Positions 36,427 through 56,376 of a stretch of 64,000 nt of DNA are shown here, one piece after another. A model generated the notes under the pieces. That model ran no database searches. It was not told where the DNA came from and saw only the letters and a program-made list of their open reading frames with translations. Made by a program: the position numbers and the translations under genes. The DNA lies in IMG/VR virus record IMGVR_UViG_3300037466_003456, positions 1 to 64,000 of that record; one strand, given 5' to 3'. Each line of letters begins with the position of its first letter. Positions within the stretch are counted from its first letter, which is position 1. The DNA comes from a virus.

Positions 36427-36969
36427 TTATAAATAAAAATCGTATTGCGCCTGGTCGATCTGTTCCTGTGTGATCCCGATGTATCTTAGGGTGACGGAAG
36501 GGGAGCTGTGGTTAAAAATCTCCTGCAGCATCGCCACATCTTTGTTTCGTTTGTAAAAATGGTATCCATAGGTTTTGCGGCATGTGTGCGTCCCGATGTT
36601 ATCGAGCCCCGCTTTCCTGGCTGCCTTATTTAATATTTTATAAGCCTGAACCCGCTGAATGGGTTTGTCGGTTAGGCGGGAAGGAAAGAGATAATCTTCT
36701 TCGCCCATATCAAAGGTATAGTCGTCGATGTCGACCCGCAGACTAGGACTAATGATGTGGGACTTCATCTTTTTTGTTTTCTGCTCGTTGATGTAGATGT
36801 GACTTTTGCCCCGTACGTGTTTGACTTTTAATTGGAGCAGGTCACTGATCCTGAGTCCGGTGTTTATTCCCATGACGAATAAAAACCAATTTCTGTAACT
36901 TTCTTTTTTTAGGATGCGTTTGACTTCTTCGATTTTTTCTGGGTCTCGGATTGGTTGAACGAACTTCAT
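36427..36969 (-). CDS. Small tyrosine recombinase (resolvase-type, catalytic domain only)
   Basis: TGLRISD (R), HTCRKT (HxxR), NHSS (H) and YIG (Y). Likely start MKFVQPIRD at 36969 with RBS GGGAG; the track start 37071 looks over-extended. Confidence 0.9.
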   Translation of the reverse strand: MKFVQPIRDPEKIEEVKRILKKESYRNWFLFVMGINTGLRISDLLQLKVKHVRGKSHIYINEQKTKKMKSHIISPSLRVDIDDYTFDMGEEDYLFPSRLTDKPIQRVQAYKILNKAARKAGLDNIGTHTCRKTYGYHFYKRNKDVAMLQEIFNHSSPSVTLRYIGITQEQIDQAQYDFYL

Positions 36970-37053
36970 TTTAGCGCTCCCTGTGTTTCCTTTTTGTATA
37001 CAAGTATAACCGATATGTTTCCCTATTAAAAATGAAAAAAACGGGAGACTCCG

Positions 37054-37077
37054 AAAACGTTGATTTATCAACGTTTT
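37054..37077. repeat. Perfect 11-bp inverted repeat upstream of the recombinase
   Basis: AAAACGTTGAT-TT-ATCAACGTTTT. Confidence 0.85.
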
Positions 37078-45911: not shown

Positions 45912-45945
45912 CTCATGTCATTTTTTTTACTTCCTTTCCATTATT

Positions 45946-45954
45946 CTTATAACA
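45946..45954 (-). promoter_or_regulatory. Copy of the TGTTATAAG promoter core
   Basis: Upstream of 45717..45911. Confidence 0.55.
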
Positions 45955-45988: not shown

Positions 45989-48900
45989 TTAAAACAGGAC
46001 TTCGGCTGTCTCCTTTTTATTTCCGTATTTCACAATTTCCGTTTGCTTGGTGATGAATTGTCGTACATTCAAGGTCCAACGATACCCATTGGTGTTTTTC
46101 TTGTATCCGAACTGACGGATTAATCCATCGTCATTTAAAGTCATGCGTGTTTCAATTCGATGTTTCTTTGTATCAAAACTCTTTCCTAAAACATTTTTCA
46201 TGGCAGTATGGATTTGCTTTAAATTGAAATCCTGAGTGGCGTCCATTTCTTCTGCCAGCACCTTCAAATGAACACTATCAATTTGAAAATTATCTCCCGA
46301 TACGTCAATCGGCTTATCATAAATATGGGAAGTATTTAACACCCAATGGCGTTTGGCATATCCTAAGATTTCTTCTGCAATTGTCACGAAGATATATTCC
46401 AACTTACCTTCTAAGGTGTTCATGGAAATTTCCTTCTTCATTTCCTTCACATTATTCTCGTAGAAAGACATCAAATACTTTTCATAATCGCCACCGCACA
46501 ACCGAGCGATGGTAACGAGAGGTCGTAGAATCTGCGTTAAACGGGCGTTCCCGGTTTCTAAACGTGTATCCGTTTCGAAGATTTGTTCAACATCCGAGAA
46601 ATAGGTCAAAGCGGAAATAGCGGCTCTGGAAGTGATGCTATAGGCTTCCCCTCGACGTTCCCCTTTAAACTTCTCTGGAGTGACCAATTTCTTTAAAACA
46701 GATTCAGGGGCTTGGTGGGTTTCAACATAAATACACCGGTCAGCGATAACATCGTCAACCCCGTTGATATTACTGATTACTTTAGGGCCAAACACTTTGT
46801 AATAGGTGGTAAATCCTGTGTCTGGATCCACACGACCAACTTCCCCTTTGTCGGAATACCCTGATTTTATGACTGCCGCAAGACCAGATTCGTTTACCTT
46901 CTTGGTATCCACTAAATACTCCAATTCATCGAGAATGAACGTGCCGCCGAATTGGTGGATCGAACGGAATAAAGCAGATTCTGTGATGTTAACCACAAAG
47001 GTTGGATTAAAACCTAACAGCTGAATAATTGCATCAAGAGTAGACTTCCCTGTACCCTTCGCCCCATTCAAAACAAGGTAAGGGAATCCACTTGAGAACA
47101 ATGTGTAAAAGTAGGTGGCGTAAATCCACAATGACAGTACCTTAATGACTTCATCGGTGCTGTAATAAATGTTGCGGATGAAGCTTTCGATTTCTTGAAT
47201 GATAATGCTGGGATGATAGGACATTTCATCGATTTCATCGTTAACCCATTTGTGAATCCACTCATACTGCAAGGAAAGATTCTCTACATCCCGCACATTA
47301 GTTTCCACTTCAGTCGGCAATTCGTATTTGTTATGAATGAGCAAAAGGCTTTGCGGAGTTTTCTTTTTAAGAAGATCCAGCCGAATCTCTTCTTTTTTGT
47401 TGCTGATGAGACACGGGACCATCTTAGGGGAATCATCATCCTTCACCATTTTCGCAAAGTACATATAGCCATCTCCTTTTTCCGGGAAAAAGGATTGAGC
47501 CAGTTGAATCTTTTGCGGTGCTCGAAGCAGGTCAACTTCCTCATTCTCATAGCCATTGACTTCTCGTAAAATCTCGGCCACATCAATGTCTGATTTAATT
47601 TTACGCTGGACTTGGCGAACCAGTAGCTCGTACTTCTTTGCAGGTGCGTGGAAAATGTACCAGGCAATCTGCTTAATGATTTCACTTTTAAACTTAGATA
47701 AATGGAAGATGTCGAGAAGTTCATCCATGGTGCGCTGTGGCTCATTTTCCACCCATCGGATGTCATGGTAATAGCTGTTGATTTCGTTGCTTAGAGCGAG
47801 TTTTAAGATGTTTTTATCGGGTGTCAGATTGATAGCCTCAATATCCTTTCCTACCCGTTTTTCATACATCAACTTTCCGTTGTAAAGCAACAAATCCCCG
47901 CTGAATGTGCGGTTTGGTTTCAAATAATCAATTTCATACCGAATGCCAACAAACCGATTTTTAATTTCCCAATGATGACGAGTACCATCACGCCAAATTT
48001 TGTATCCATCAGTTTCTTGTATCTTTGCCATATCAATGGAGTTCTTTAATATTTCAATGGCATTTTCATCGTTTTTCAAAAACTCATCGATATCCTTATA
48101 TTGTTCAGGAAACTCAAGGCTTTTCACCTTCACATCAGGGAGTTCATCGCTCAGCTGCTCTCTGTATTTGTCGCCAGCATCATCATGGTCAAATGCTTCG
48201 TAGATTTCATCAAACTGTCGAAGAAGATCGTTATCAAAAAATCCTTCTGGTGCATTACCACCGATTCCCCAAACCATGAAGTTTTTCTGATAAGAGGAAG
48301 GAAGTTCTAAAAATGCTTCTTTCGTAGATTGCTTGTCATTTTCTCCTTCGACTAATATCAGAGACTTTTTCTTTTTGGATTTTAACTCCTTGGGATGGGC
48401 GAAGAAAACTCCTTCCTTATCCCCACGACTTAAATTGTTAGGAGTCATGGTGTGCCCTGTCATATTCTCGTGGGCCGTCTTTAAGTAATCGTCAAGACTG
48501 TAATAATTTTGATTACAGTCATAGTGATAACCGCCATTCGGTTTCGCTTTACCTCGACAGGTACGGACGAAGATTTTACAGTTTACCCGAACCAAGTTTC
48601 CTTTTTCATCGCAGTAAGGATAGATAAAGTAACCCTCGGGCAACCCAACTAATGCCTGGGCACGGTTGATTTCAAATTCCTCATAGCCTTCTTCAAGTAA
48701 TTTCTTTTTCAATTCTGGCCAGCCACCGGTGTAACCTACTCGATCTTCAATCAAGGTTTCTGCTTTGTGCTTACGTTTTCTTGTTAAGTAATGAAGCGGC
48801 ACAATAATTTCCTCGGAGCCAGAGCTGTAATCCGTATAGGTTACGCTTCTTAACCGGGAATGGTAGTAATCGATGGCTCTTTGACAAATCCGTTGGAAGC

Positions 48901-49231
48901 GGGCATATTGTTCTCTTGCTGCTGATTGGGATGGTTCATGGCTGGCAAAGTTATATTTCTTTCCTGCCCACTCTCCAAGCCTTGTTCTGCCTTCAATTTC
49001 ACCAAGCTGATCTTCTACGATTTTAATAAGGGATCCACTAGCGTCACAAGAAAAACAATGACCTCCATTAAATCCCTTTGTCAGACTGAAACAGTTGTTA
49101 TGTCCGCAATAGGGACAGGGATTTACAAATATGGACTTTCCGGAAACTTCTATATTCGTAGACAAAAAGGTCCTGGCATAATCATCTAAGTTTCGTAGAA
49201 TATGTTCTGTAATGTCTTTAACCCAACTCAA
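45989..49231 (-). CDS. Primase-helicase fusion (Zn finger + TOPRIM + C-terminal P-loop ATPase)
   Basis: CPYC...CFSC zinc finger; VEGEND and FDHDDAG TOPRIM motifs; GAKGTGKST Walker A and FILDE Walker B. Confidence 0.85.
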   Translation of the reverse strand: MSWVKDITEHILRNLDDYARTFLSTNIEVSGKSIFVNPCPYCGHNNCFSLTKGFNGGHCFSCDASGSLIKIVEDQLGEIEGRTRLGEWAGKKYNFASHEPSQSAAREQYARFQRICQRAIDYYHSRLRSVTYTDYSSGSEEIIVPLHYLTRKRKHKAETLIEDRVGYTGGWPELKKKLLEEGYEEFEINRAQALVGLPEGYFIYPYCDEKGNLVRVNCKIFVRTCRGKAKPNGGYHYDCNQNYYSLDDYLKTAHENMTGHTMTPNNLSRGDKEGVFFAHPKELKSKKKKSLILVEGENDKQSTKEAFLELPSSYQKNFMVWGIGGNAPEGFFDNDLLRQFDEIYEAFDHDDAGDKYREQLSDELPDVKVKSLEFPEQYKDIDEFLKNDENAIEILKNSIDMAKIQETDGYKIWRDGTRHHWEIKNRFVGIRYEIDYLKPNRTFSGDLLLYNGKLMYEKRVGKDIEAINLTPDKNILKLALSNEINSYYHDIRWVENEPQRTMDELLDIFHLSKFKSEIIKQIAWYIFHAPAKKYELLVRQVQRKIKSDIDVAEILREVNGYENEEVDLLRAPQKIQLAQSFFPEKGDGYMYFAKMVKDDDSPKMVPCLISNKKEEIRLDLLKKKTPQSLLLIHNKYELPTEVETNVRDVENLSLQYEWIHKWVNDEIDEMSYHPSIIIQEIESFIRNIYYSTDEVIKVLSLWIYATYFYTLFSSGFPYLVLNGAKGTGKSTLDAIIQLLGFNPTFVVNITESALFRSIHQFGGTFILDELEYLVDTKKVNESGLAAVIKSGYSDKGEVGRVDPDTGFTTYYKVFGPKVISNINGVDDVIADRCIYVETHQAPESVLKKLVTPEKFKGERRGEAYSITSRAAISALTYFSDVEQIFETDTRLETGNARLTQILRPLVTIARLCGGDYEKYLMSFYENNVKEMKKEISMNTLEGKLEYIFVTIAEEILGYAKRHWVLNTSHIYDKPIDVSGDNFQIDSVHLKVLAEEMDATQDFNLKQIHTAMKNVLGKSFDTKKHRIETRMTLNDDGLIRQFGYKKNTNGYRWTLNVRQFITKQTEIVKYGNKKETAEVLF

Positions 49232-49270: not shown

Positions 49271-49981
49271 TTAAAAAGACTCGATCTCTCTCTGTATGGT
49301 CTTTTTCGGTAATGATAAAACGGCCTCTAGTCCTGTTACTAATTGCCTATTCGTAATACTAATTCTATCATGGAAAACAGCAATTGAAACAGTTTTACCG
49401 TTAGAAAATAATTTTAAGGCATGGAGGAAGGTATTGCTATTGACGGTTATAAACAACTCGTCCTTTTCAATCGAATGTCCTGTAGTAAACCCCATTTGTT
49501 CAACTCGAAAAATTTGGTTGTCATGCTTTTGAAAAAGAGCTGCCTCTAAGCGAGCGTTGTGTCTTTTTAATCTTAGCCAGGTTTGATCTCTTTCTCGTTT
49601 CTTTTTGATGGTCTCAAGGAACGTAATAAGACAATCACTCTGAATTTCTATTTCTCTTTCAGGCTCACCTGAAAAGATGAAGGTTAAATCTTTACGGGTT
49701 AATTCATTTTTAGTAAAAAGTGATTGATATTTGCTAGGTCGCTTTTTCATATTTTGATAGGGGAAGGTCACAATCACTTCGCCTTCATCCTCACTATTCG
49801 TAGGGATATAAAAAACAGGGGACGTGGGTTCCTCATGCTTCATCCGAACTGCATAGCTCGTTTCCACCATGTACCCATATTCTTCATCAAAATAAACGCC
49901 TGCCGTATGGTCATCACCTTTCCAATTTAAAAGTGGCCAATGCTGCCTAAGCAGCATCGCCACATCGTATCGCGTTACCAT
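49271..49981 (-). CDS. Hypothetical protein, possible sliding-clamp-like fold
   Basis: C-terminal FITVNSNTFLHALKLFSNGKTVSIAV...LEAVLSLP resembles a clamp-domain strand-helix-strand pattern; weak inference. Confidence 0.35.
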   Translation of the reverse strand: MVTRYDVAMLLRQHWPLLNWKGDDHTAGVYFDEEYGYMVETSYAVRMKHEEPTSPVFYIPTNSEDEGEVIVTFPYQNMKKRPSKYQSLFTKNELTRKDLTFIFSGEPEREIEIQSDCLITFLETIKKKRERDQTWLRLKRHNARLEAALFQKHDNQIFRVEQMGFTTGHSIEKDELFITVNSNTFLHALKLFSNGKTVSIAVFHDRISITNRQLVTGLEAVLSLPKKTIQREIESF

Positions 49982-50370
49982 ACTTTCCCCACTGGAGGAT
50001 TAATCAATCCGTTGTCTTTTTTCTTTTCATACTCGGAAAATCGATTTCTAAAAGAAAGATGGTTACGATGTAAATAATTGATTAAGTTTTCTAACGTGGA
50101 GTCCGCCTTATTCGTGCGTGACAAAACATCAAAAATCGCACCATGTTCTTCTGACATAACAGCTTTAAACATTTCATCTTCTTCACTACCCCAGCGAAAT
50201 GGATTGTTTTTAATTTCAAGGATGGCCTGACTTTTGCTGGTATGAAAAAAGAGTTCGTCAAAATAAGCAGGACCTGAATCACACAATCCTGAATAAATAT
50301 CCCACATCAATTGATTGTAGTGGGTATCTAGTATATGAGCCAGCTCTTGTTTTGCCTTTAAAGCATCCAT
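49975..50370 (-). CDS. GxVW-array paralog 12 (most distal)
   Basis: Ends INPPVGKVW; likely start MDALKAK. Confidence 0.75.
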   Translation of the reverse strand: MDALKAKQELAHILDTHYNQLMWDIYSGLCDSGPAYFDELFFHTSKSQAILEIKNNPFRWGSEEDEMFKAVMSEEHGAIFDVLSRTNKADSTLENLINYLHRNHLSFRNRFSEYEKKKDNGLINPPVGKVW

Positions 50371-50375
50371 GTTCC

Positions 50376-50816
50376 TTACCACACCTTTCCAACGGGTATA
50401 TTTATATATCTTTTTAGAAAGCCATCGAGATAGGACATATTTTTATAATTTAATACTGTCATAATGTCTTGGTACAATAAATTCTCGTACAGACCATCCG
50501 AGTGGTCGCCTGATGCTTTCTTCATTTCATATTTATTTAGCTCACCATGTAAAAACAGAAATCGTTCCCGCTTTGACATCTTTTCGATTATGTCAAAAAG
50601 GTACCGTTCATTTAAATGCTTCTGTCCTAAGAGGGCAGAAAGGAAATATTCAGGTTTATCCCTGGTCAAATGCAGTAAAATGTTTTCAAGGACAGTTGGT
50701 AAACCTTTCCCGTTGTATCTCATGTACGTATCGACCACCTGATTTTCAAACTCTTTTTGAAATGCAGGTATAACGAAGTTTAAATGTAACGGTTCTATTT
50801 TGCTAACTTCATTCAT
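50376..50816 (-). CDS. GxVW-array paralog 11
   Basis: FVIPAFQKEFENQVVDTY ... YQDIMTVLNYKNMSY ... INIPVGKVW. Confidence 0.8.
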   Translation of the reverse strand: MNEVSKIEPLHLNFVIPAFQKEFENQVVDTYMRYNGKGLPTVLENILLHLTRDKPEYFLSALLGQKHLNERYLFDIIEKMSKRERFLFLHGELNKYEMKKASGDHSDGLYENLLYQDIMTVLNYKNMSYLDGFLKRYINIPVGKVW

Positions 50817-50822
50817 GCATTC

Positions 50823-51191
50823 TCACCATACGCTTCCTACAGGTATATTTCGGCAATCAATATAATGCCGTCTTGTTGGATGGATATCCTTTGCATAGAA
50901 CATGTGTTTAAATTCCAATAAAATCTGAACGTCCTTTCGAATTTCATCTGCGTCGGTAATACGGATTTTGTCTCCTTTATTTCCAAGAAGAACAGAAAGG
51001 TCACTATACGGATTGCCTGTTTCTAAATAATTGTGTCGATAAACAGAAAAATAACTTGCAGCATACGTAAGATCTTTAAGACCATGTACTCCTTCATCAA
51101 AATATGCCCCGAATACAAATTCCTCAAAATCCGATGCCAGCTCCTCTGGAATGAATTGTAGCTGTAACTTTCGTTTAACTAATCCATCCAT
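50823..51191 (-). CDS. GxVW-array paralog 10
   Basis: FIPEELASDFEEFVFGAY ... RNIPVGSVW. Confidence 0.8.
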   Translation of the reverse strand: MDGLVKRKLQLQFIPEELASDFEEFVFGAYFDEGVHGLKDLTYAASYFSVYRHNYLETGNPYSDLSVLLGNKGDKIRITDADEIRKDVQILLEFKHMFYAKDIHPTRRHYIDCRNIPVGSVW

Positions 51192-51194
51192 CCC

Positions 51195-51572
51195 TTACCA
51201 CACCTTTCCGACAGGGAAATTGATAAACTTTCTATTCTTGAAACTAACGCTCATATGATATTTAAAAATAACGCTAAACAAGTCTTTATCGTACGCCCTT
51301 GAATACTTTTCAACTGCATCGTCCTGCCACTTTAGAATATCTGGTAGTTTGAACCAAGCGAATCGATCTCCGAATTCCAGTAACGAAGCTACCTCACGAA
51401 ATGAATCTACTGATTGGTCATAGATGGTGCCTGCTAAAGGAATAAATTCTGGAATTCCCCACTTAGTCTGTGTATCTGCGACCTTTTCGTAAATATCAAA
51501 TACGTCCATTTCAAATTGACTTCGCGATTCCTCCGGAACTAAAAGAAATGGTTTTTGCTGAACTACTTGCAT
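51195..51572 (-). CDS. GxVW-array paralog 9
   Basis: LVPEESRSQFEMDVFDIY ... INFPVGKVW; TAATG overlap. Confidence 0.8.
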   Translation of the reverse strand: MQVVQQKPFLLVPEESRSQFEMDVFDIYEKVADTQTKWGIPEFIPLAGTIYDQSVDSFREVASLLEFGDRFAWFKLPDILKWQDDAVEKYSRAYDKDLFSVIFKYHMSVSFKNRKFINFPVGKVW

Positions 51573-51937
51573 TACCAAACCCTCCCGACTGGCAGATTGA
51601 TATATTTATCAAGTAAAAAAGAGTCATAAGACAAATTGTGAAAGTTAAGAACTGCCATTATGTCATTTATGAAATCATCTTCGTTCGCATCTTTGAACTC
51701 CGATAATTCATCAGCTGGATACGGGTTCGAAAAATAATGCTGATCCTCGAATATTTCCAATCTTGCTGTTTTATGCAAATAAGACAAGACACACCCGAAT
51801 ATGTGATGGTCGGTTGGAAGTTGGACAGGATTTTTCATTGCAATTTCAAAATAGGATTTTTCAACATCTCGAATAAAGGAATCTCGAAGCTGTTCAGGGA
51901 CAACAGTTAATTTAAGTTTTTCTCTTTTTGCTAACAT
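51572..51937 (-). CDS. GxVW-array paralog 8
   Basis: VVPEQLRDSFIRDVEKSY ... FINDIMAVLNFHNLSY ... INLPVGRVW. Confidence 0.8.
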   Translation of the reverse strand: MLAKREKLKLTVVPEQLRDSFIRDVEKSYFEIAMKNPVQLPTDHHIFGCVLSYLHKTARLEIFEDQHYFSNPYPADELSEFKDANEDDFINDIMAVLNFHNLSYDSFLLDKYINLPVGRVW

Positions 51938-52336
51938 TTACCACACCTGCCCGATTGGATGATTGATAACGCGGTTATTGTGTGTATGAGACATGTTATA
52001 GTGAAGCAAAACTCTCCTAATATCATTTATAAAACCATCGGTATTATTTTCTTGGCAAATCCCAAAATCCAAAAATTCATTAGCATCCAGTTCATTCGGA
52101 GGACGCCACATTTTAAAAACTTCAAGTGAGCATAATTGTTCAAATAAATCATTTACTTCATACATGTTAATGTCTTCAGGTGTTAGAAAATATAGTTTAG
52201 TTTTTTTGAACAGATAACCTGCAGTATCAAACTGGACGTTTTCGTATCCTTCCTTTACCAGCTCAACGAATTTATCTGACATGTAATCTGGAACAACAGA
52301 AAACTTCGGATACCCATTAACAACTAATTGCTTCAT
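51938..52336 (-). CDS. GxVW-array paralog 7
   Basis: VVPDYMSDKFVELVKEGY ... FINDIRRVLLHYNMSH ... INHPIGQVW. Confidence 0.8.
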   Translation of the reverse strand: MKQLVVNGYPKFSVVPDYMSDKFVELVKEGYENVQFDTAGYLFKKTKLYFLTPEDINMYEVNDLFEQLCSLEVFKMWRPPNELDANEFLDFGICQENNTDGFINDIRRVLLHYNMSHTHNNRVINHPIGQVW

Positions 52337-52737
52337 TACCACACCTGCCCTACAAAATGATTGACATGTTTTTTGGGATTTTCTGAATTGATATAACTTA
52401 AGTTCAAAAATCTTAGCAGCCGTTCAACATCTCTAAAAGCAAATTCATAATACGGATCGGTAATGGCATATTTTCTTGTGCGTTTTTCTTCGTTGTCTCC
52501 CATTCCTTTCAACACATCGGACCAATAATTGATATTCCTACCGTTGGTTTCCTGATGGGAAGCCACCTTCAGAATGACATCTCTTGTAGCATCTGTAAGA
52601 ACATGTAAATCTGGCAACTCTCCTGATTTATAACCATAATAGGTGTTGAATATAAGATTCATAAAATCAAACGAAAGATGGTCAGGCACCCAAGGGAATG
52701 CCTGACCACTGTAAATGATATCTGCTGTCAATCTCAT
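52336..52737 (-). CDS. GxVW-array paralog 6
   Basis: WVPDHLSFDFMNLIFNTY ... VNHFVGQVW. Confidence 0.8.
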   Translation of the reverse strand: MRLTADIIYSGQAFPWVPDHLSFDFMNLIFNTYYGYKSGELPDLHVLTDATRDVILKVASHQETNGRNINYWSDVLKGMGDNEEKRTRKYAITDPYYEFAFRDVERLLRFLNLSYINSENPKKHVNHFVGQVW

Positions 52738-52738
52738 C

Positions 52739-53215
52739 TCACCATACCTTTCCAACAGGGAAATTGCGAAATACTGGATTGACGGAAAAGCCATGAATGG
52801 AATAGGATTCCTGGAAGAACATTTTGTTGTGATACAAATACCTTTTCATATCCTCAATAAATCGCAGTTCAATCACCGTTTCATTCTTTTCCAAGAATTT
52901 TCGTGATTGTTCCCAATGGTGGTCATCCTGATATACCCAATTGTGAGGAAATTGATTGGGATCGAATTTAACATTTGCTTCTTTTAAATAATGGTGATTA
53001 TAGATATCCGTGTAATGATCAAGCAGAATGTCTCTTGTAAGTTCGTCCTTAAACATCATATTATTTGTAATTAAAGGAACGAGGTCTTCTGGGCATCTGT
53101 CAGTTGCAGCTAATTCTATATACCAATCTTCCATGTAGCTCTCGAATAATTTTGTCGCTACCTCTGGAACCCACTGATAATTGACCGTTTGTTTCGCTAA
53201 TTGATTACTTTTCAT
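52739..53215 (-). CDS. GxVW-array paralog 5
   Basis: WVPEVATKLFESYMEDWY ... RNFPVGKVW. Confidence 0.8.
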   Translation of the reverse strand: MKSNQLAKQTVNYQWVPEVATKLFESYMEDWYIELAATDRCPEDLVPLITNNMMFKDELTRDILLDHYTDIYNHHYLKEANVKFDPNQFPHNWVYQDDHHWEQSRKFLEKNETVIELRFIEDMKRYLYHNKMFFQESYSIHGFSVNPVFRNFPVGKVW

Positions 53216-53580
53216 TACCACACCTCACCAGAAAAATGATTGAAATACCTTGTACGAGGATGAGCGTCATCCGTATAGCAATAAAATAGGTGATACGCAT
53301 TTAATACAGAGACCACATCTTCATATGCCTCAACAGAATCCCTATGTTTTCCGAAATGAGCAAAGACATCAATTCCTGTAAACCCAGGATGTTCCTTCAT
53401 TCTGAATAAATTAGGCGGATGTTGGTTTCCATGTAAAATATTTGATTTAATCAAATCCTTTTGATACCACTCGAGCACATCAAATACAAACCATTCAAAT
53501 TGATGTTGATTACCTTGAATTAATTTCATTTGTTCCCGCAATTTTTTTACTCCAGAAACCGTCAGGGCTCCGTTCACCAT
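53215..53580 (-). CDS. GxVW-array paralog 4
   Basis: FVFDVLEWY ... YEDVVSVLNAYHLFY ... FNHFSGEVW. Confidence 0.75.
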   Translation of the reverse strand: MVNGALTVSGVKKLREQMKLIQGNQHQFEWFVFDVLEWYQKDLIKSNILHGNQHPPNLFRMKEHPGFTGIDVFAHFGKHRDSVEAYEDVVSVLNAYHLFYCYTDDAHPRTRYFNHFSGEVW

Positions 53581-53972
53581 ATCCCACCTCCATAGGGACA
53601 ATTAATGACTTTTTTACGATCTGCCCCTGTGTAAGACATGTATCTTGTTCTCAAATAATTAAGGACAATGGAATCCGTTTCGCTTTTTTGCATTTCCTGA
53701 AAGGTAAACTCGGAAATGCCTCCCATCGCCGCTTTCGAATGGAATACATGAGGGGCGTATCCATATTTTAGATGGATCCCTGCCGCAACCATTTCATTGA
53801 CCTTTTCTGAACGGGCTTTAAGATTTATTTCATCATGACATCTCTCTAATAATTCACCGATAAACGGGAAACCGGGAGATTTTAAGTTATATGAGTTGTT
53901 CACCAAATGGGCGTAAGTTTGCCATATCTGGTCTTCGTATGGAAAAATCACATACTTTTCAAGTTGGTTCAT
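53574..53972 (-). CDS. GxVW-array paralog 3
   Basis: Ends VLNYLRTRYMSY ... INCPYGGGIW. Confidence 0.75.
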   Translation of the reverse strand: MNQLEKYVIFPYEDQIWQTYAHLVNNSYNLKSPGFPFIGELLERCHDEINLKARSEKVNEMVAAGIHLKYGYAPHVFHSKAAMGGISEFTFQEMQKSETDSIVLNYLRTRYMSYTGADRKKVINCPYGGGIW

Positions 53973-54245
53973 TTACCACACCTCTCCTATAGGGAAATTG
54001 ATATAACCGTCACGAAATCTCAAGAAGATATGATGGTCTTGGCAGCATCTAATAACTGAAAACGCGACTTCTTCAAAAGGTTTATCACTTAATATCTTCA
54101 CAGTGACGTCGTTTAGACTTGGAATGAAACCTACTTCTTGTAACAAAAAAGGAGGAGCATGATACGACATCTCTATTACCTCATCGTAATAGGCGTCCAT
54201 CACTTTATTTAAAAACACTTGGTCTTTTCTTTGAATAATATTCAT
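53973..54245 (-). CDS. GxVW-array paralog 2
   Basis: FLNKVMDAY ... INFPIGEVW; about 90 aa. Confidence 0.75.
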   Translation of the reverse strand: MNIIQRKDQVFLNKVMDAYYDEVIEMSYHAPPFLLQEVGFIPSLNDVTVKILSDKPFEEVAFSVIRCCQDHHIFLRFRDGYINFPIGEVW

Positions 54246-54640
54246 TACCACACCTTCCCTACAGGCATATTGATGTAAGGGTCTTTTATTTTCCATAGTT
54301 CAATAAACTCTTTGCTTTTTATCACAAAAGAATAACCTTGACTTACAAGCTCGTCATAGATGACGGCTTCACCCTTAATAGGAGAATTCTTTATTGTGCT
54401 AACTAAGTGATTAAATTCATCTAGAGATAAATCTTTGCTTTTTAATTGCTCCGTTGCCCGAGTCAATAAATTAAGCATTTTCTGGGTGTATTCATTTTCC
54501 TTATCCAGATTGTGCATCATGTGGTGCATATAGATATTTTCAAAAGTTGGCAAAAAAATAGTATTAGAAGCAGAGGATCGATATGCTTCAAACATATCGA
54601 TCCTCTTAACTGCTGACAAAGAAAAGGTTTCGTTGCTCAC
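54245..54640 (-). CDS. GxVW-array paralog 1 (first transcribed)
   Basis: Ends INMPVGKVW; start is either GTG 54640 (GTGA overlap) or ATG 54595. Confidence 0.7.
   Translation of the reverse strand: MSNETFSLSAVKRIDMFEAYRSSASNTIFLPTFENIYMHHMMHNLDKENEYTQKMLNLLTRATEQLKSKDLSLDEFNHLVSTIKNSPIKGEAVIYDELVSQGYSFVIKSKEFIELWKIKDPYINMPVGKVW
54572..54606. promoter_or_regulatory. Perfect 14-bp hairpin enclosing an RBS and ATG
   Basis: Minus strand AGAGGATCGATATG-TTTGAAG-CATATCGATCCTCT. Confidence 0.75.
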
Positions 54641-55731
54641 GGTATCCAAATCCTTCCACGTATATGTTGGTAAGTCGGTGCTATTGCTGCTTCAATCGTA
54701 GGATGTTCATTATGTCCTTCCGCATAAAAATAACCCCCGCTATAGGCATCAGCGAATTGCATCGAGATACGAGGATATCCTTTTAATGTGTTCATTAAGG
54801 CAGAGAAAAGATCTAAGTCAAATGTAAGCATCGGAGCACCTTGAATCCACTTGTCGTTATAATCAGGCATAAATGGATGGTCCATAATATATTTCACGTT
54901 ATTAGTATCACTTTTATTCACCTCATAAGAACCATGACCAGCACGAAGCATACCGCGATCAAAATGCTGAACGGCAATCCGAATACCAGTCTTTAAGGGT
55001 TGCAGCACGTTGCAAGTTTTAACGCCAGCTTGCTTATCTTCGTTCATTGGTCTGATCAAATACACCAATCCCGGACGAATTCTTTCGGCATTAATGATGG
55101 AGTCCTTATCAACAAAACTCTTGACGGTATACAATTTTCCTTTAAATTCAAATTCAGAAACCATGATGATTTCGTTATTTGGTTGTTTCTCAGCCATCGC
55201 GGCTAAATGTCCGACTGGAACTCCAGCTGTAAATTGGATATTAATCTTCCTGTCTTGGTATTGCGGAGAACTTTGAAAACCTGTGAAATGATCATTAACA
55301 AATTCATGGATATCATTCGGACTTAAATCAACATTAAACTTTAACGCTGTTTTCTCCTTCATGGCGTTAATGTAATCAATCGCTTCCTTAGTACGGATTC
55401 TTTCCCGTTCTTTTCCGTCGTTTACATCGTCCCCTAGAATTCCTTCAGTGTCTGCGGTAGTTGTGTCATAGGTCTCTTTTCTATAATGATAGAGGCCGTT
55501 TTCATGCATAATTCCTCTCGGACCGACTCCTAGATCCACTTCTGCTCCTCTTGCATACTGGGCCCTGAAAAACATTACACCTCGATTGGAAACAACTCTT
55601 CTTACTCCACCCACTATACTTCCGTTTTCAACGTCAAAAAACATATACTGATTGTCGCTATCGCGATTCAAAGTAACGATTGGATAAAATAAAGGAATCG
55701 CATGCCCCATTTGTCTTGCTACAGTTTCCAT
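54637..55731 (-). CDS. Hypothetical protein, possible beta-clamp-like fold
   Basis: About 364 aa from METVAR; C-terminal LTFDLDLFSALMNTLKGYPRISMQF...IEAAIAP resembles DnaN domain III; inference only. Confidence 0.4.
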   Translation of the reverse strand: METVARQMGHAIPLFYPIVTLNRDSDNQYMFFDVENGSIVGGVRRVVSNRGVMFFRAQYARGAEVDLGVGPRGIMHENGLYHYRKETYDTTTADTEGILGDDVNDGKERERIRTKEAIDYINAMKEKTALKFNVDLSPNDIHEFVNDHFTGFQSSPQYQDRKINIQFTAGVPVGHLAAMAEKQPNNEIIMVSEFEFKGKLYTVKSFVDKDSIINAERIRPGLVYLIRPMNEDKQAGVKTCNVLQPLKTGIRIAVQHFDRGMLRAGHGSYEVNKSDTNNVKYIMDHPFMPDYNDKWIQGAPMLTFDLDLFSALMNTLKGYPRISMQFADAYSGGYFYAEGHNEHPTIEAAIAPTYQHIRGRIWIP

Positions 55732-55797
55732 ACATATCAATCTCCCTTTTTTAAAAATTAAATAAAAAAGACAGCACATCATTGTGCCGTCTATTCC

Positions 55798-56319: not shown

Positions 56320-56367
56320 GTTTAATCGTCTCCTTTTTATTTCATAAATTTTTTCTTACTCACTGTC

Positions 56368-56376
56368 CTTATAACA
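56368..56376 (-). promoter_or_regulatory. Copy of the TGTTATAAG promoter core
   Basis: TGTTATAAGGACAGTG upstream of 55798..56319. Confidence 0.55.

What the first reader, a model, noticed from the sequence alone, without database searches (positions are those of the whole stretch)
49975..54640. Tandem array of 12 highly divergent paralogs with a fixed scaffold, hypervariable core and invariant C-terminal Trp motif
Seen: twelve consecutive 90-160 aa ORFs, all ending [IVRF]-N-x-[PF]-[VISY]-G-x-[VI]-W-stop (one, GGGIW, has an extra residue). Most also share an N-terminal phi-P-x5-F-x3-phi-x3-Y motif and a pre-terminal F/Y-x2-D-phi-x2-phi-L-x3-[NH]-[LM]-[SF]-Y helix, while the middle 40-90 residues differ in length and sequence. 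Synonymous positions in the motif vary (CCA/CCC/CCT, GTG/GTT/GTA/GTC), which points to selection on the peptide. The array is co-oriented and tightly coupled within the replication block just upstream of the primase-helicase. I do not recognise this family. Inference: a diversified repertoire of binders on a common scaffold, for example anti-defence or host-targeting adaptors that dock through the terminal Trp on a shared partner or polymerise head to tail.
Basis: partly seen in the sequence, partly recalled or inferred. Interest (0 to 1): 0.92.

Follow-up and report, generated by a model that had tools for sequence, protein, structure and literature searches.

The report
Clamp-flanked array of VW-tailed phage proteins
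A soil Bacillus-type phage carries twelve old, strongly diverged copies of a small unknown protein that all end in the same valine-tryptophan tail; they sit between two sliding-clamp-like replication genes, so they may be adaptors that plug into the phage's DNA clamp, but binding is unproven.

Summary
Twelve co-oriented, start/stop-coupled genes (49975-54640, minus strand; 90-158 aa) all end N-x-[PF]-x-G-x-[VI]-W-stop. A 13th solo copy lies about 50 kb away, directly upstream of a sigma-factor gene.

The family has no Pfam, PHROG, NCBIfam, PADLOC or PDB match. A confident AlphaFold model (helical bundle plus hairpin) finds no known fold.

The array is ancient, not hypervariable. Five related soil or Priestia-associated phage contigs carry colinear arrays of 12-14 members. 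Members cluster by position rather than by phage, and ortholog dN/dS is 0.17-0.35 along the whole protein.

The tail has two layers:
- Codons -4/-3 double as the next gene's Shine-Dalgarno site.
- N, P, V and the terminal W are selected as peptide. They survive synonymous changes and survive in the junctions that have their own downstream SD.

New here: both genes bracketing the array have the sliding-clamp fold. The 364-aa protein reaches Z 15 against DnaN, and the 236-aa protein reaches TM 0.64-0.68 against DnaN/PCNA clusters.

Best reading (about 0.4): non-redundant acidic adaptors that dock by a PIP-box-spaced C-terminal peptide on a phage clamp, as T4 gp33, gp55 and gp43 do. No binding has been shown. 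Other first-reader notes of this scan on this same stretch had raised the RBS overlap and the clamp flanks; both were tested here.

The parts
54637..55731 (-). Clamp A. A 364-aa sliding-clamp-fold protein: two clamp domains plus an OB/S1-like insert at about residues 172-246. It ends in a disordered tail R-G-R-I-W-I-P. Its stop is coupled to member 1.
   Evidence: AlphaFold pLDDT 74.8. VIA-align Z 15.0, rmsd 3.6 over 200 residues to DnaN 3t0p_B; the top 38 rows are all clamps. Foldseek gives 255 hits at E<=1e-3, and every listed row is a DnaN, PCNA or 9-1-1 clamp. There is no sequence-level Pfam match. R, G, W and P of the tail are invariant in 13 homologues.
54245..54640 (-). Member W01 (131 aa, GTG start). 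Ends NMPVGKVW.
   Evidence: The ortholog in L001 starts with ATG at the same place. Body homology to the rest of the family is not significant without the tail.
53973..54245 (-). Member W02 (90 aa). Ends NFPIGEVW.
   Evidence: It belongs to an orthogroup present in five phages. Without the tail it shares only the N-terminal helix motif with the family (P 7e-4).
53574..53972 (-). Member W03 (132 aa). Ends NCPYGGGIW, the one-residue-longer tail.
   Evidence: Its orthogroup carries the same insertion in all five phages.
53215..53580 (-). Member W04 (121 aa). Ends NHFSGEVW.
   Evidence: Found by the tail-less profile at E 2.7e-9.
52739..53215 (-). Member W05 (158 aa). Ends NFPVGKVW.
   Evidence: E 4e-10.
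52336..52737 (-). Member W06 (133 aa). Ends NHFVGQVW.
   Evidence: E 1.4e-7.
51938..52336 (-). Member W07 (132 aa). Ends NHPIGQVW. It is the fastest-evolving slot.
   Evidence: E 1.1e-8. Only 37-38% identical to its L001 counterpart.
51572..51937 (-). Member W08 (121 aa). Ends NLPVGRVW. This is the member whose structure was modelled.
   Evidence: AlphaFold pLDDT 91.5, pTM 0.83: helices 15-35, 43-49, 51-63 and 75-99, then a hairpin at 104-113. The tail has pLDDT about 89, but the terminal Trp only 52.
51195..51572 (-). Member W09 (125 aa). Ends NFPVGKVW.
   Evidence: E 4.7e-12.
50823..51191 (-). Member W10 (122 aa). Ends NIPVGSVW. The next gene's start lies 6 nt after the stop, and the -3 codon (AGC) is not SD-like.
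50376..50816 (-). Member W11 (146 aa). Ends NIPVGKVW.
   Evidence: E 3.9e-15.
49975..50370 (-). Member W12 (131 aa). Ends NPPVGKVW. Its Val-Trp codons (GTATGG) contain the ATG of the next gene.
   Evidence: Its orthogroup is 85% hhalign-probable to the rest of the family without the tail.
49271..49981 (-). Clamp B. A 236-aa probable two-domain sliding-clamp-fold protein of gp45/PCNA size.
   Evidence: The ESM Atlas model (pTM 0.74) matches clusters of beta clamp (TM 0.67 over 201 residues), phage DnaN-like proteins (0.68) and PCNA (0.64). No sequence-level match was found. It is conserved next to the array in all six phages.
45989..49231 (-). Primase-helicase (1080 aa), downstream end of the block.
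   Evidence: phrog_239 E 1.1e-17 and Toprim_2. 92% and 52% identical in the L002 and L004 phages.
56361..56376 (-). Promoter-like motif TGTTATAAG-N4-GTG upstream of the block. The next copy, at 45939-45954, follows the primase.
   Evidence: 7 matches in the window against 0.52 expected.
55769..55792 (-). Terminator-like hairpin between the 173-aa gene and clamp A.
   Evidence: 10-bp stem followed by a T-run. Its effect on transcription of the array is unknown.

Best explanation
**Shown**
- The stretch is the middle of a translationally coupled replication block in a new lineage of large phages from soil. One relative sits in a Priestia megaterium assembly.
- The gene order is: clamp-fold gene A (364 aa), then 12 small acidic helical proteins of a lineage-specific family, then clamp-fold gene B (236 aa), then primase-helicase.
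- The paralogs are old. Each slot has its own ortholog in five phages, and all are under purifying selection, so each copy does something of its own.
- The invariant end is N-x-P-[VI]-x-x-V-W-COOH. Its two middle codons also serve as the next gene's Shine-Dalgarno site. N, P, V and W are kept as peptide.

**Inferred**
- The conserved first and last helices form a constant scaffold, and the variable middle is a member-specific surface.
- The C-terminal octapeptide has PIP-box spacing (polar-x-x-aliphatic-x-x-hydrophobic-aromatic) and a free terminal Trp. It would be a common plug that docks every member on one shared partner.
- The most likely partner is one of the two clamp-fold proteins encoded on either side. 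This is the way T4 gp33, gp55 and gp43 use interchangeable C-terminal tails to bind gp45.
- The array would then be a 'tool-belt' of adaptors that bring different cargos or activities to the phage clamp.
- The solo 13th copy is coupled to a sigma-factor gene. It could link the clamp to transcription, as gp33/gp55 do in T4.
For: **The family and its body**
- The array and its tail are real.
- Body homology holds without the tail for 10 of 13 copies.
- The confident helical model places the tail, but not the last Trp (pLDDT 52).
- All 66 members are acidic to neutral (pI 4.05-6.97, median 4.93), which argues against DNA binding and fits protein adaptors.

**Age and selection**
- Syntenic arrays of 12-14 members, with both flanks, occur in L001/L002, L004, L011, L012 and L015.
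- In the tree, members cluster by slot with starred support, not by phage.
- dN/dS is 0.17-0.35.

**Peptide-level constraint on the tail**
- Pro, Val and Asn codons vary synonymously.
- In the 8 junctions with their own downstream SD, the SD-like codon choices vanish: 0 of 8 have a -3 codon ending in G, against 41 of 47 elsewhere, and 0 of 8 use GTG. The [VI]W end is still kept in 8 of 8.

**Concerted tail dialect**
- Gly at -4 occurs in 13 of 13 copies (window phage, including the solo copy 50 kb away) and 9 of 12 (L001), but in 0 of 54 in four other phages. The Gly codons vary (GGG, GGA, GGT).
- Val versus Ile at -5 follows the same split.
- This is what a shared co-evolving partner would produce.

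**Flanks and precedent**
- Clamp fold of the flanks.
- C-terminal clamp-binding tails are interchangeable among T4 gp55, gp33 and gp43 (PMC2988020).
- The gene after the solo copy is a sigma factor (Sigma70_r2, 33.2 bits against a cutoff of 24).
Against: - No binding has been demonstrated.
- The link to the clamps rests on conserved adjacency within a single phage lineage, so it is effectively one evolutionary observation.
- The motif starts with Asn rather than the Gln of PIP boxes or QL[SD]LF motifs, and contains Pro and often Gly.
- No other replication protein in the 121.7-kb record ends in VW, whereas in T4 the polymerase shares the tail.
- No DNA polymerase was recognised at all.
- AlphaFold places residues 114-120 with pLDDT about 89. 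The tail, apart from its last Trp, may therefore pack on its own domain rather than act as a flexible plug.
- Clamp A itself ends in a similar G-R-I-W-I-P tail, which could equally mean that clamp A and the family all dock on some third partner.
- Whether the clamp-fold proteins form rings is unknown.
- The concerted tail dialect could also come from gene conversion at the junctions.
Confidence: 0.4

Rival explanations
1. Same family, no shared partner. The tail is an intramolecular cap of the fold: N-cap, Pro and Val pack on the bundle. The members are independent early or middle proteins, for example host-takeover or anti-defence factors, each with its own target. They stay in the clamp-primase operon only for timing.
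For: - Tail residues 114-120 are placed confidently on the domain in the model.
- The paralogs are very diverged (11-19% identity outside the tail), and each is conserved separately.
- No other protein of the phage carries the tail.
Against: - The one residue conserved in every member of all six phage contigs (79 members) and in nearly all remote hits, the terminal Trp, is the residue the model cannot place (pLDDT 52).
- The protein always stops exactly after Trp.
- All paralogs of one phage share a tail dialect.
Confidence: 0.2
2. The tail docks on a host hub rather than on the phage clamps. Candidates are the host beta clamp, an SSB-tail pocket, RNA polymerase or a protease adaptor. The array would then be a host-takeover battery competing with host clients.
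For: - C-terminal hydrophobic or aromatic tips with a free carboxylate are a general docking device of replisome hubs. Established examples are the SSB IPF tip and the T7 gp2.5 and gp4 terminal Phe.
- A solved complex of a small phage protein with the host beta clamp (Gp168, PDB 7evp) turned up among the clamp matches.
- Clamp A carries a related tail itself.
- The solo copy sits next to a sigma-factor gene.
Against: - There is no similarity to known beta-clamp motifs (QL[SD]LF) or to the acidic SSB tip.
- The phage-specific tail dialect is easier to explain with a fast-evolving phage partner than with a conserved host hub.
- The strict synteny with two phage clamp genes would be left unexplained.
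Confidence: 0.2
3. The members assemble with each other, head to tail or as hetero-oligomers. The tail of one inserts into the conserved N-terminal or pre-terminal helices of another, building a multi-subunit scaffold.
For: - Conserved tail plus conserved scaffold helices.
- Translational coupling, which favours equimolar synthesis.
- A concerted tail dialect.
Against: - No direct evidence.
- Copy number differs (12-14) between phages, and middle slots are gained and lost.
- The solo copy is expressed elsewhere in the genome.
Confidence: 0.1
4. The shared C-terminus is only a by-product of translational coupling. It would be conserved RNA (SD, spacer, stop-start overlap), possibly a recombination-prone junction cassette, with no role as peptide.
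For: - Codons -4/-3/-2 spell an SD-like sequence (GGNAAGGTG or GGAGGTG) 5-9 nt before the next ATG in 47 junctions, and the -3 codon ends in G in 41 of those 47.
- In some junctions GTATGG itself holds the next start.
Against: - Val uses four codons and Pro four.
- N-x-P lies upstream of any SD.
- In 8 junctions with a separate downstream SD, the SD-like codon choices disappear but [VI]W remains.
- The same ending is kept on the last member of the array in every phage and on the solo copy.
Confidence: 0.05

Closest known systems
T4 gp33, gp55 and gp43 with the gp45 clamp (C-terminal clamp-binding tails; PMC2988020, PMC7892883)
   Same: - Small proteins carry a short hydrophobic peptide at the extreme C-terminus that plugs into the phage's own sliding clamp.
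- The same kind of tail is shared by unrelated proteins.
- There is a link to a phage sigma factor: here the solo copy is start/stop-coupled to a Sigma70_r2 gene.
   Different: - No sequence or detectable fold relation to gp33.
- The tail is N-x-P-[VI]-x-x-V-W, not the acidic-hydrophobic T4 epitope.
- There are 12-14 tandem paralogs instead of single genes.
- There are two clamp-fold genes instead of one.
- No polymerase carrying the tail was found.
- Binding is untested.
PIP-box clients of PCNA (Q-x-x-[LIM]-x-x-[FY]-[FY]), often C-terminal in archaea
   Same: - Eight-residue spacing: polar, x, x, aliphatic, x, x, then two hydrophobic or aromatic residues.
- Position at the very C-terminus.
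- A clamp-fold protein is encoded next door.
   Different: - Asn replaces Gln, Pro is fixed at position 3, and Val-Trp replaces the aromatic pair.
- The resemblance is one of pattern only.
C-terminal aromatic tips of replisome hubs (bacterial SSB ...DDDIPF; T7 gp2.5 and gp4 terminal Phe)
   Same: - An invariant last aromatic residue, with the chain ending exactly there.
- Replication context.
- The primase-helicase of this phage also ends in a conserved acidic ...E-V-L-F.
   Different: - There is no acidic run before the tip.
- The tip sits on folded small proteins rather than on a long disordered tail.
Small phage proteins that bind the host beta clamp (Gp168-beta-clamp complex, PDB 7evp, seen)
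   Same: Small phage proteins aimed at a sliding clamp.
   Different: Single genes, with no shared tail motif. From my knowledge of that work they act on the host clamp as inhibitors; that was not checked here.
Blocks of small early genes in large Bacillus phages, such as the SPO1 host-takeover module (from general knowledge, not tested here)
   Same: Many small, co-transcribed, lineage-specific proteins of unknown fold.
   Different: As far as I know, those blocks are not paralogs with a common terminal motif and are not bracketed by clamp genes.

Membership tests
Clamp-interacting proteins with a C-terminal docking peptide (T4 gp33/gp55/gp43 type, PIP-box type) | A short hydrophobic or aromatic peptide at the extreme C-terminus, conserved as peptide | tested here: met
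   Trp is last in 66 of 66 members and Val or Ile precedes it in 66 of 66, with synonymous codon variation. The ending is kept where the SD lies elsewhere.
Clamp-interacting proteins with a C-terminal docking peptide (T4 gp33/gp55/gp43 type, PIP-box type) | Match to a known consensus (Q-x-x-h-x-x-a-a, or QL[SD]LF) | tested here: inconclusive
   The spacing fits the PIP box, but Asn replaces Gln, Pro is fixed at position 3 and the end is V-W. There is no fit to QL[SD]LF.
Clamp-interacting proteins with a C-terminal docking peptide (T4 gp33/gp55/gp43 type, PIP-box type) | A cognate sliding clamp is present | tested here: met
   Clamp A: Z 15.0 over 200 residues to DnaN, and only clamps in the top 38 rows. 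Clamp B: TM 0.64-0.68 to clamp clusters.
Clamp-interacting proteins with a C-terminal docking peptide (T4 gp33/gp55/gp43 type, PIP-box type) | Physical binding of the tail to the hydrophobic pocket of the clamp | not testable with these tools
   This needs ITC, pull-down or a structure.
T4 gp33 co-activator family | Sequence or fold homology to gp33 | tested here: inconclusive
   No Pfam or PHROG family matched any member. No gp33 chain appears among the fold matches, but a missing fold match does not exclude the family.
Bacterial beta clamp (DnaN) or PCNA, for the two flanking genes | Repeated clamp-domain fold | tested here: met
   for the 364-aa protein. for the 236-aa protein, which rests on the Atlas model only.
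Bacterial beta clamp (DnaN) or PCNA, for the two flanking genes | Match to the sequence families (PF00712, PF02767, PF02768, PCNA, gp45) | tested here: not met
   No Pfam hit. PF02768 finds nothing in the whole record even at E<=10. No PDB sequence hit.
Actively diversifying (arms-race) repertoire | Excess non-synonymous change in the variable core; unstable orthology | tested here: not met
   dN/dS is 0.28 in the middle against 0.32 and 0.25 at the ends, and all 11 computable pairs lie between 0.17 and 0.35. Orthogroups are colinear across five phages.
Translationally coupled junction (SD inside the upstream coding tail) | An SD-like sequence 5-9 nt before a start that overlaps or abuts the stop | tested here: met
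   TAATG or TGATG overlaps and AGGTG, GAGGTG or GGAGG in codons -4 to -2. 47 of 66 junctions are of this type.

The most novel reading that the evidence does not exclude
The two clamp-fold proteins form a phage-specific, possibly heteromeric, sliding clamp. The 12-14 VW-tailed proteins are a genetically hard-wired 'tool-belt': a dozen non-redundant adaptors that all plug into that clamp through one PIP-like C-terminal peptide. They would couple the moving replisome to other processes. That includes transcription through the solo copy and its sigma factor, which would be an independent reinvention of the T4 gp45-gp33-gp55 logic.
Probability: 0.25. Interest if true: 0.85.

Novelty: new variant of a known kind. 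Interest (0 to 1): 0.62.

Why it matters
- **If the tails dock on the flanking clamps.** This would be the largest known set of dedicated clamp clients encoded in one operon, and it would define a new clamp-binding motif ending in Trp. It would also be a tractable system for asking how one clamp sorts many partners.
- **Link to transcription.** It would offer a second, independent example of a phage wiring a clamp to a sigma factor.
- **If the clamp reading fails.** The block still defines a new protein family with an unmatched fold that has been kept as 12-14 distinct copies over deep phage divergence. It also shows cleanly how a peptide motif and a ribosome-binding site can share the same codons.

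Tried and rejected
**Family members: searches that found nothing**
- Pfam, PHROGs, NCBIfam and PADLOC: no credible hit.
- PDB sequence profile search: nothing below E 0.1.
- Foldseek against PDB and BFVD with the member-8 model: no hit at E<=1.
- VIA-align against 48,161 chains: best Z 5.6, which is noise for helical proteins. A scatter of winged-helix rows at Z 4-5 was not pursued, because all members are acidic.
- ESM Atlas for member 8: no usable hit.

**Searches for relatives**
- megablast of the block and tblastn of the primase against 50,697 phage records: no match.
- IMG/VR scans with the primase: only about 26%-identical strangers. The family alignment was too diverse for a pattern scan.
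- GTDB genome contigs with clamp A: none.
- Whole-record search of the related contigs: the records are not held.

**Comparisons among the local genes**
- hhalign of clamp B against clamp A, and of the family against clamp A: no relation.

**Complex prediction**
- Complex prediction of clamp A with member 8 gave 'no answer' (score 0.00, controls not run). It says nothing for or against binding.

**Other checks**
- Sequencing runs: 11 soil or rhizosphere DNA holders and no RNA holder listed, so no statement on expression can be made.
- DNA polymerase families A, B and C in the 121.7-kb record (estimated 80% complete): none found. Whether the polymerase shares the tail could therefore not be checked.
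- The idea that only the RBS-coding tail is shared was rejected for 10 of 13 copies. It remains open for W01-W03.

Full report
**1. The observation**

ORF listing and direct reading of the minus strand show twelve consecutive genes between 54640 and 49975. Each ends in N-x-[PF]-x-G-x-[VI]-W followed at once by a stop, and one has an extra Gly.
- Most starts are the ATG that overlaps the preceding stop (TAATG or TGATG). After trimming, the products are 90-158 aa.
- A six-frame scan finds this ending in these twelve ORFs only within the window.
- The window is part of a 121,681-bp IMG/VR virus record, estimated 80% complete. A profile search of that record finds all twelve plus a thirteenth copy at 103537-103917.
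- No other ORF of at least 60 aa in the record ends in VW.
Its Tyr and the last Trp are the only invariant columns in a 73-sequence alignment.

**2. Is only the tail shared?**

I removed the last 12 residues from both the training set and the targets. The profile was built solely from members of three other phages.
- It still finds 10 of the 13 copies (E 4e-15 to 1e-4) and nothing else among 339 ORFs of the genome.
- The first three members (W01-W03) are the exception. Tail-less profile-profile comparison gives only short, weak matches to one helix (P 0.09, 7e-4, 0.01).
- W01-W03 are therefore either extremely diverged members or different proteins that carry the same tail.

**3. What the family looks like**

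- No Pfam, PHROG, NCBIfam, PADLOC or PDB sequence match was found.
- An exhaustive HMM search of 1.84 billion cluster representatives finds only 49 proteins at E<=1e-3. Nearly all end in N-x-P-[IV]-x-x-V-W.
- With the 73-sequence alignment, AlphaFold gives a confident model of member 8 (pLDDT 91.5, pTM 0.83). It has a long first helix carrying the F/Y motif, two short helices in the variable middle, a long pre-terminal helix carrying the D-phi-x2-phi-L motif, a small hairpin and then the tail.
- The tail up to Val has pLDDT about 89, but the terminal Trp only 52.
- Foldseek (PDB, BFVD) and VIA-align find no convincing fold match; the best Z is 5.6.
- All 66 members examined are acidic to neutral, with median pI 4.93.

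**4. Age and selection**

- Contigs from other samples carry the same module: L001/L002 (12 members), L004 (14), L012 (13), L015 (13), and L011 (14 members plus an inserted HTH gene). L011 is a 180-kb contig of a Priestia megaterium assembly.
- In a maximum-likelihood tree of 66 members, sequences group by array position with starred support, not by phage. Gain and loss is confined to the middle slots.
- The paralogs therefore predate the divergence of phages whose primases are only 52% identical.
- Against the closest relative, orthologs are 37-80% identical while paralogs are 15-30%.
- dN/dS is 0.17-0.35 for the 11 computable pairs. The variable middle (0.28) is no higher than the N-terminal (0.32) or C-terminal (0.25) parts. 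The two flanks score 0.17-0.18 and the primase 0.05.
- Over deeper comparisons the middle is the least conserved part (21% identity, against 30% and 26% for the ends). It still retains twice the paralog level of 11%.
- This is a set of old, individually maintained genes, not a currently diversifying cassette.

**5. The tail: two superimposed codes**

The DNA of codons -4 to -2 reads GGNAAGGTG or GGAGGTG, 5-9 nt before the next start. Sixty-six junctions fall into three classes.

| Class | Junctions | -3 codon ends in G | Val codon GTG | [VI]W kept |
|---|---|---|---|---|
| SD embedded in the tail | 47 | 41 of 47 | 26 of 47 | all |
| Own SD in a 6-15-nt spacer | 8 | 0 of 8 | 0 of 8 | 8 of 8 |
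| Next ATG formed by the Val-Trp codons themselves (GTATGG) | the remaining junctions | not scored | GTA or ATA in most | all |

- Pro, Val and Asn codons vary freely at synonymous sites.
- So the middle of the tail is shaped by the ribosome-binding site, while N, P, V, W and the stop right after W are selected as peptide.

**6. A phage-specific dialect**

- Gly at -4 is present in 13 of 13 copies of this phage, including the solo copy 50 kb away, and in 9 of 12 copies of its close relative. It is present in none of the 54 copies of four other phages.
- Val against Ile at -5 follows the same split.
- The paralogs split long before the phages did, so all tails of a phage have changed together. 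The Gly codons differ (GGG, GGA, GGT), which argues against very recent gene conversion.
- This pattern is what a single co-evolving partner would produce. Junction gene conversion is the alternative.

**7. The neighbours**

- *Upstream gene (364 aa).* It has no sequence-family match. Its AlphaFold model (pLDDT 74.8) matches sliding clamps almost exclusively.
  - VIA-align gives Z 15.0, rmsd 3.6 and 200 aligned residues to DnaN domains II-III. The top 38 rows are DnaN, PCNA, 9-1-1, gp45 and herpesviral processivity factors.
  - Foldseek gives 255 hits at E<=1e-3, and every listed row is a DnaN, PCNA or 9-1-1 clamp.
  - Residues 172-246 resemble an S1/OB barrel (Z 7-8).
  - Its disordered C-terminus, R-G-[RK]-[IV]-W-[IL]-P, is invariant at R, G, W and P in 13 homologues and looks like the family tail with two extra residues.
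- *Downstream gene (236 aa).* Its ESM Atlas model has pTM 0.74. Its nearest structural clusters are beta clamps, phage DnaN-like proteins and PCNA (TM 0.64-0.68 over about 200 residues). Again there is no sequence-level support.
- Both flanks accompany the array in all six phages. The primase-helicase follows.
- A phage promoter-like motif lies upstream of the block and again after the primase. A terminator-like hairpin precedes clamp A.

**8. The solo copy**

The thirteenth member (126 aa, ending NLPVGRVW) is start/stop-coupled to a 196-aa ORF that passes the Pfam threshold for Sigma70_r2. A multi-HTH protein follows.

**9. Reading**

C-terminal hydrophobic peptides are the usual way clients bind clamp-fold proteins. 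In T4 the C-terminal clamp-binding motifs of gp55, gp33 and the polymerase are interchangeable (PMC2988020).
- The family tail has PIP-box spacing and an invariant terminal aromatic residue, and it sits between two clamp-fold genes.
- I therefore rate 'adaptors that dock on a phage clamp' as the best single mechanism, at about 0.4.
- Points against: adjacency in one lineage is one observation; the motif is not a known consensus; no polymerase with the tail was found; and the model places most of the tail on its own domain.
- Rivals are an intramolecular cap with independent functions (0.2), a host hub as partner (0.2), self-assembly (0.1) and a pure RNA-level artefact (0.05).

**10. Source and novelty**

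- The stretch occurs in soil and rhizosphere metagenome runs, and a relative lies in a Priestia megaterium assembly.
- The record also encodes an integrase.
- No close relative exists among 50,697 deposited phage genomes.
- The family is new and its fold is unmatched. The concept it most resembles, clamp clients with C-terminal plugs, is known.

Noticed in passing
outside the window: G000:C1:103537-103917 (-), equal to L005 5538-5918 (-); next ORF L005 4954-5544 (-): A thirteenth, solo family member (126 aa, ending NLPVGRVW) is start/stop-coupled to a 196-aa sigma factor (Sigma70_r2, 33.2 bits). A 310-aa multi-HTH protein follows. Its last 20 nt are identical to those of array member W08, although the two bodies are very different.
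   Followed up: partly
window 54572-54606 (-): A perfect 14-bp hairpin lies inside the coding start of member W01 and covers an internal GAGGA and ATG. It is kept in L001 with a G-U change and in L012 with compensatory changes, but not in L004 or L011.
   Followed up: partly
window 54637-54663 (-), C-terminus of the 364-aa clamp-fold protein: Clamp A ends in a disordered R-G-[RK]-[IV]-W-[IL]-P tail that is invariant at R, G, W and P in 13 homologues. It resembles the family tail plus two residues.
   Followed up: partly
window about 54990-55220 (-), residues about 172-246 of the 364-aa protein: An S1/OB-like beta barrel appears to be inserted into the clamp fold. It matches RNase R and NusA S1 domains at Z 7-8.
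   Followed up: no
window 45989-46015 (-): The primase-helicase ends in a conserved acidic tail with a terminal Phe (...E-x-A-E-V-L-F; E, A, E, L and F invariant in three phages). This recalls the T7 gp4 C-terminal tail.
   Followed up: no
L011 16063-16485 (+): In the Priestia megaterium-associated relative, a 140-aa HTH protein (weak KORA and Sigma70_r4 hits) that lacks the VW end is inserted between array members 12 and 13.
   Followed up: no
window 37447, 38250, 38572, 38813, 39226, 45939 and 56361 (all on the minus strand): Seven copies of TGTTAYAAG-N4-GTG (one with a mismatch) against 0.52 expected. This is probably a phage promoter class. Two of the copies bracket the clamp-array-primase block.
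   Followed up: partly
whole record G000 (121,681 bp): No match to DNA polymerase families A, B or C, although the record has a primase-helicase, two clamp-fold genes, helicases and SbcCD-like genes. The polymerase is either in the missing roughly 20% or unrecognisably diverged.
   Followed up: partly
window 36427-37071 (-): A 214-aa ORF matches the integrase family phrog_216 (E 1e-62). This suggests a temperate or recombinase-bearing phage.
   Followed up: no
window 51938-52336 (-): Slot 7 is far more diverged from its L001 counterpart (37-38% identity, synonymous sites saturated) than the other eleven slots (53-80%). The cause could be replacement or accelerated evolution.
   Followed up: no
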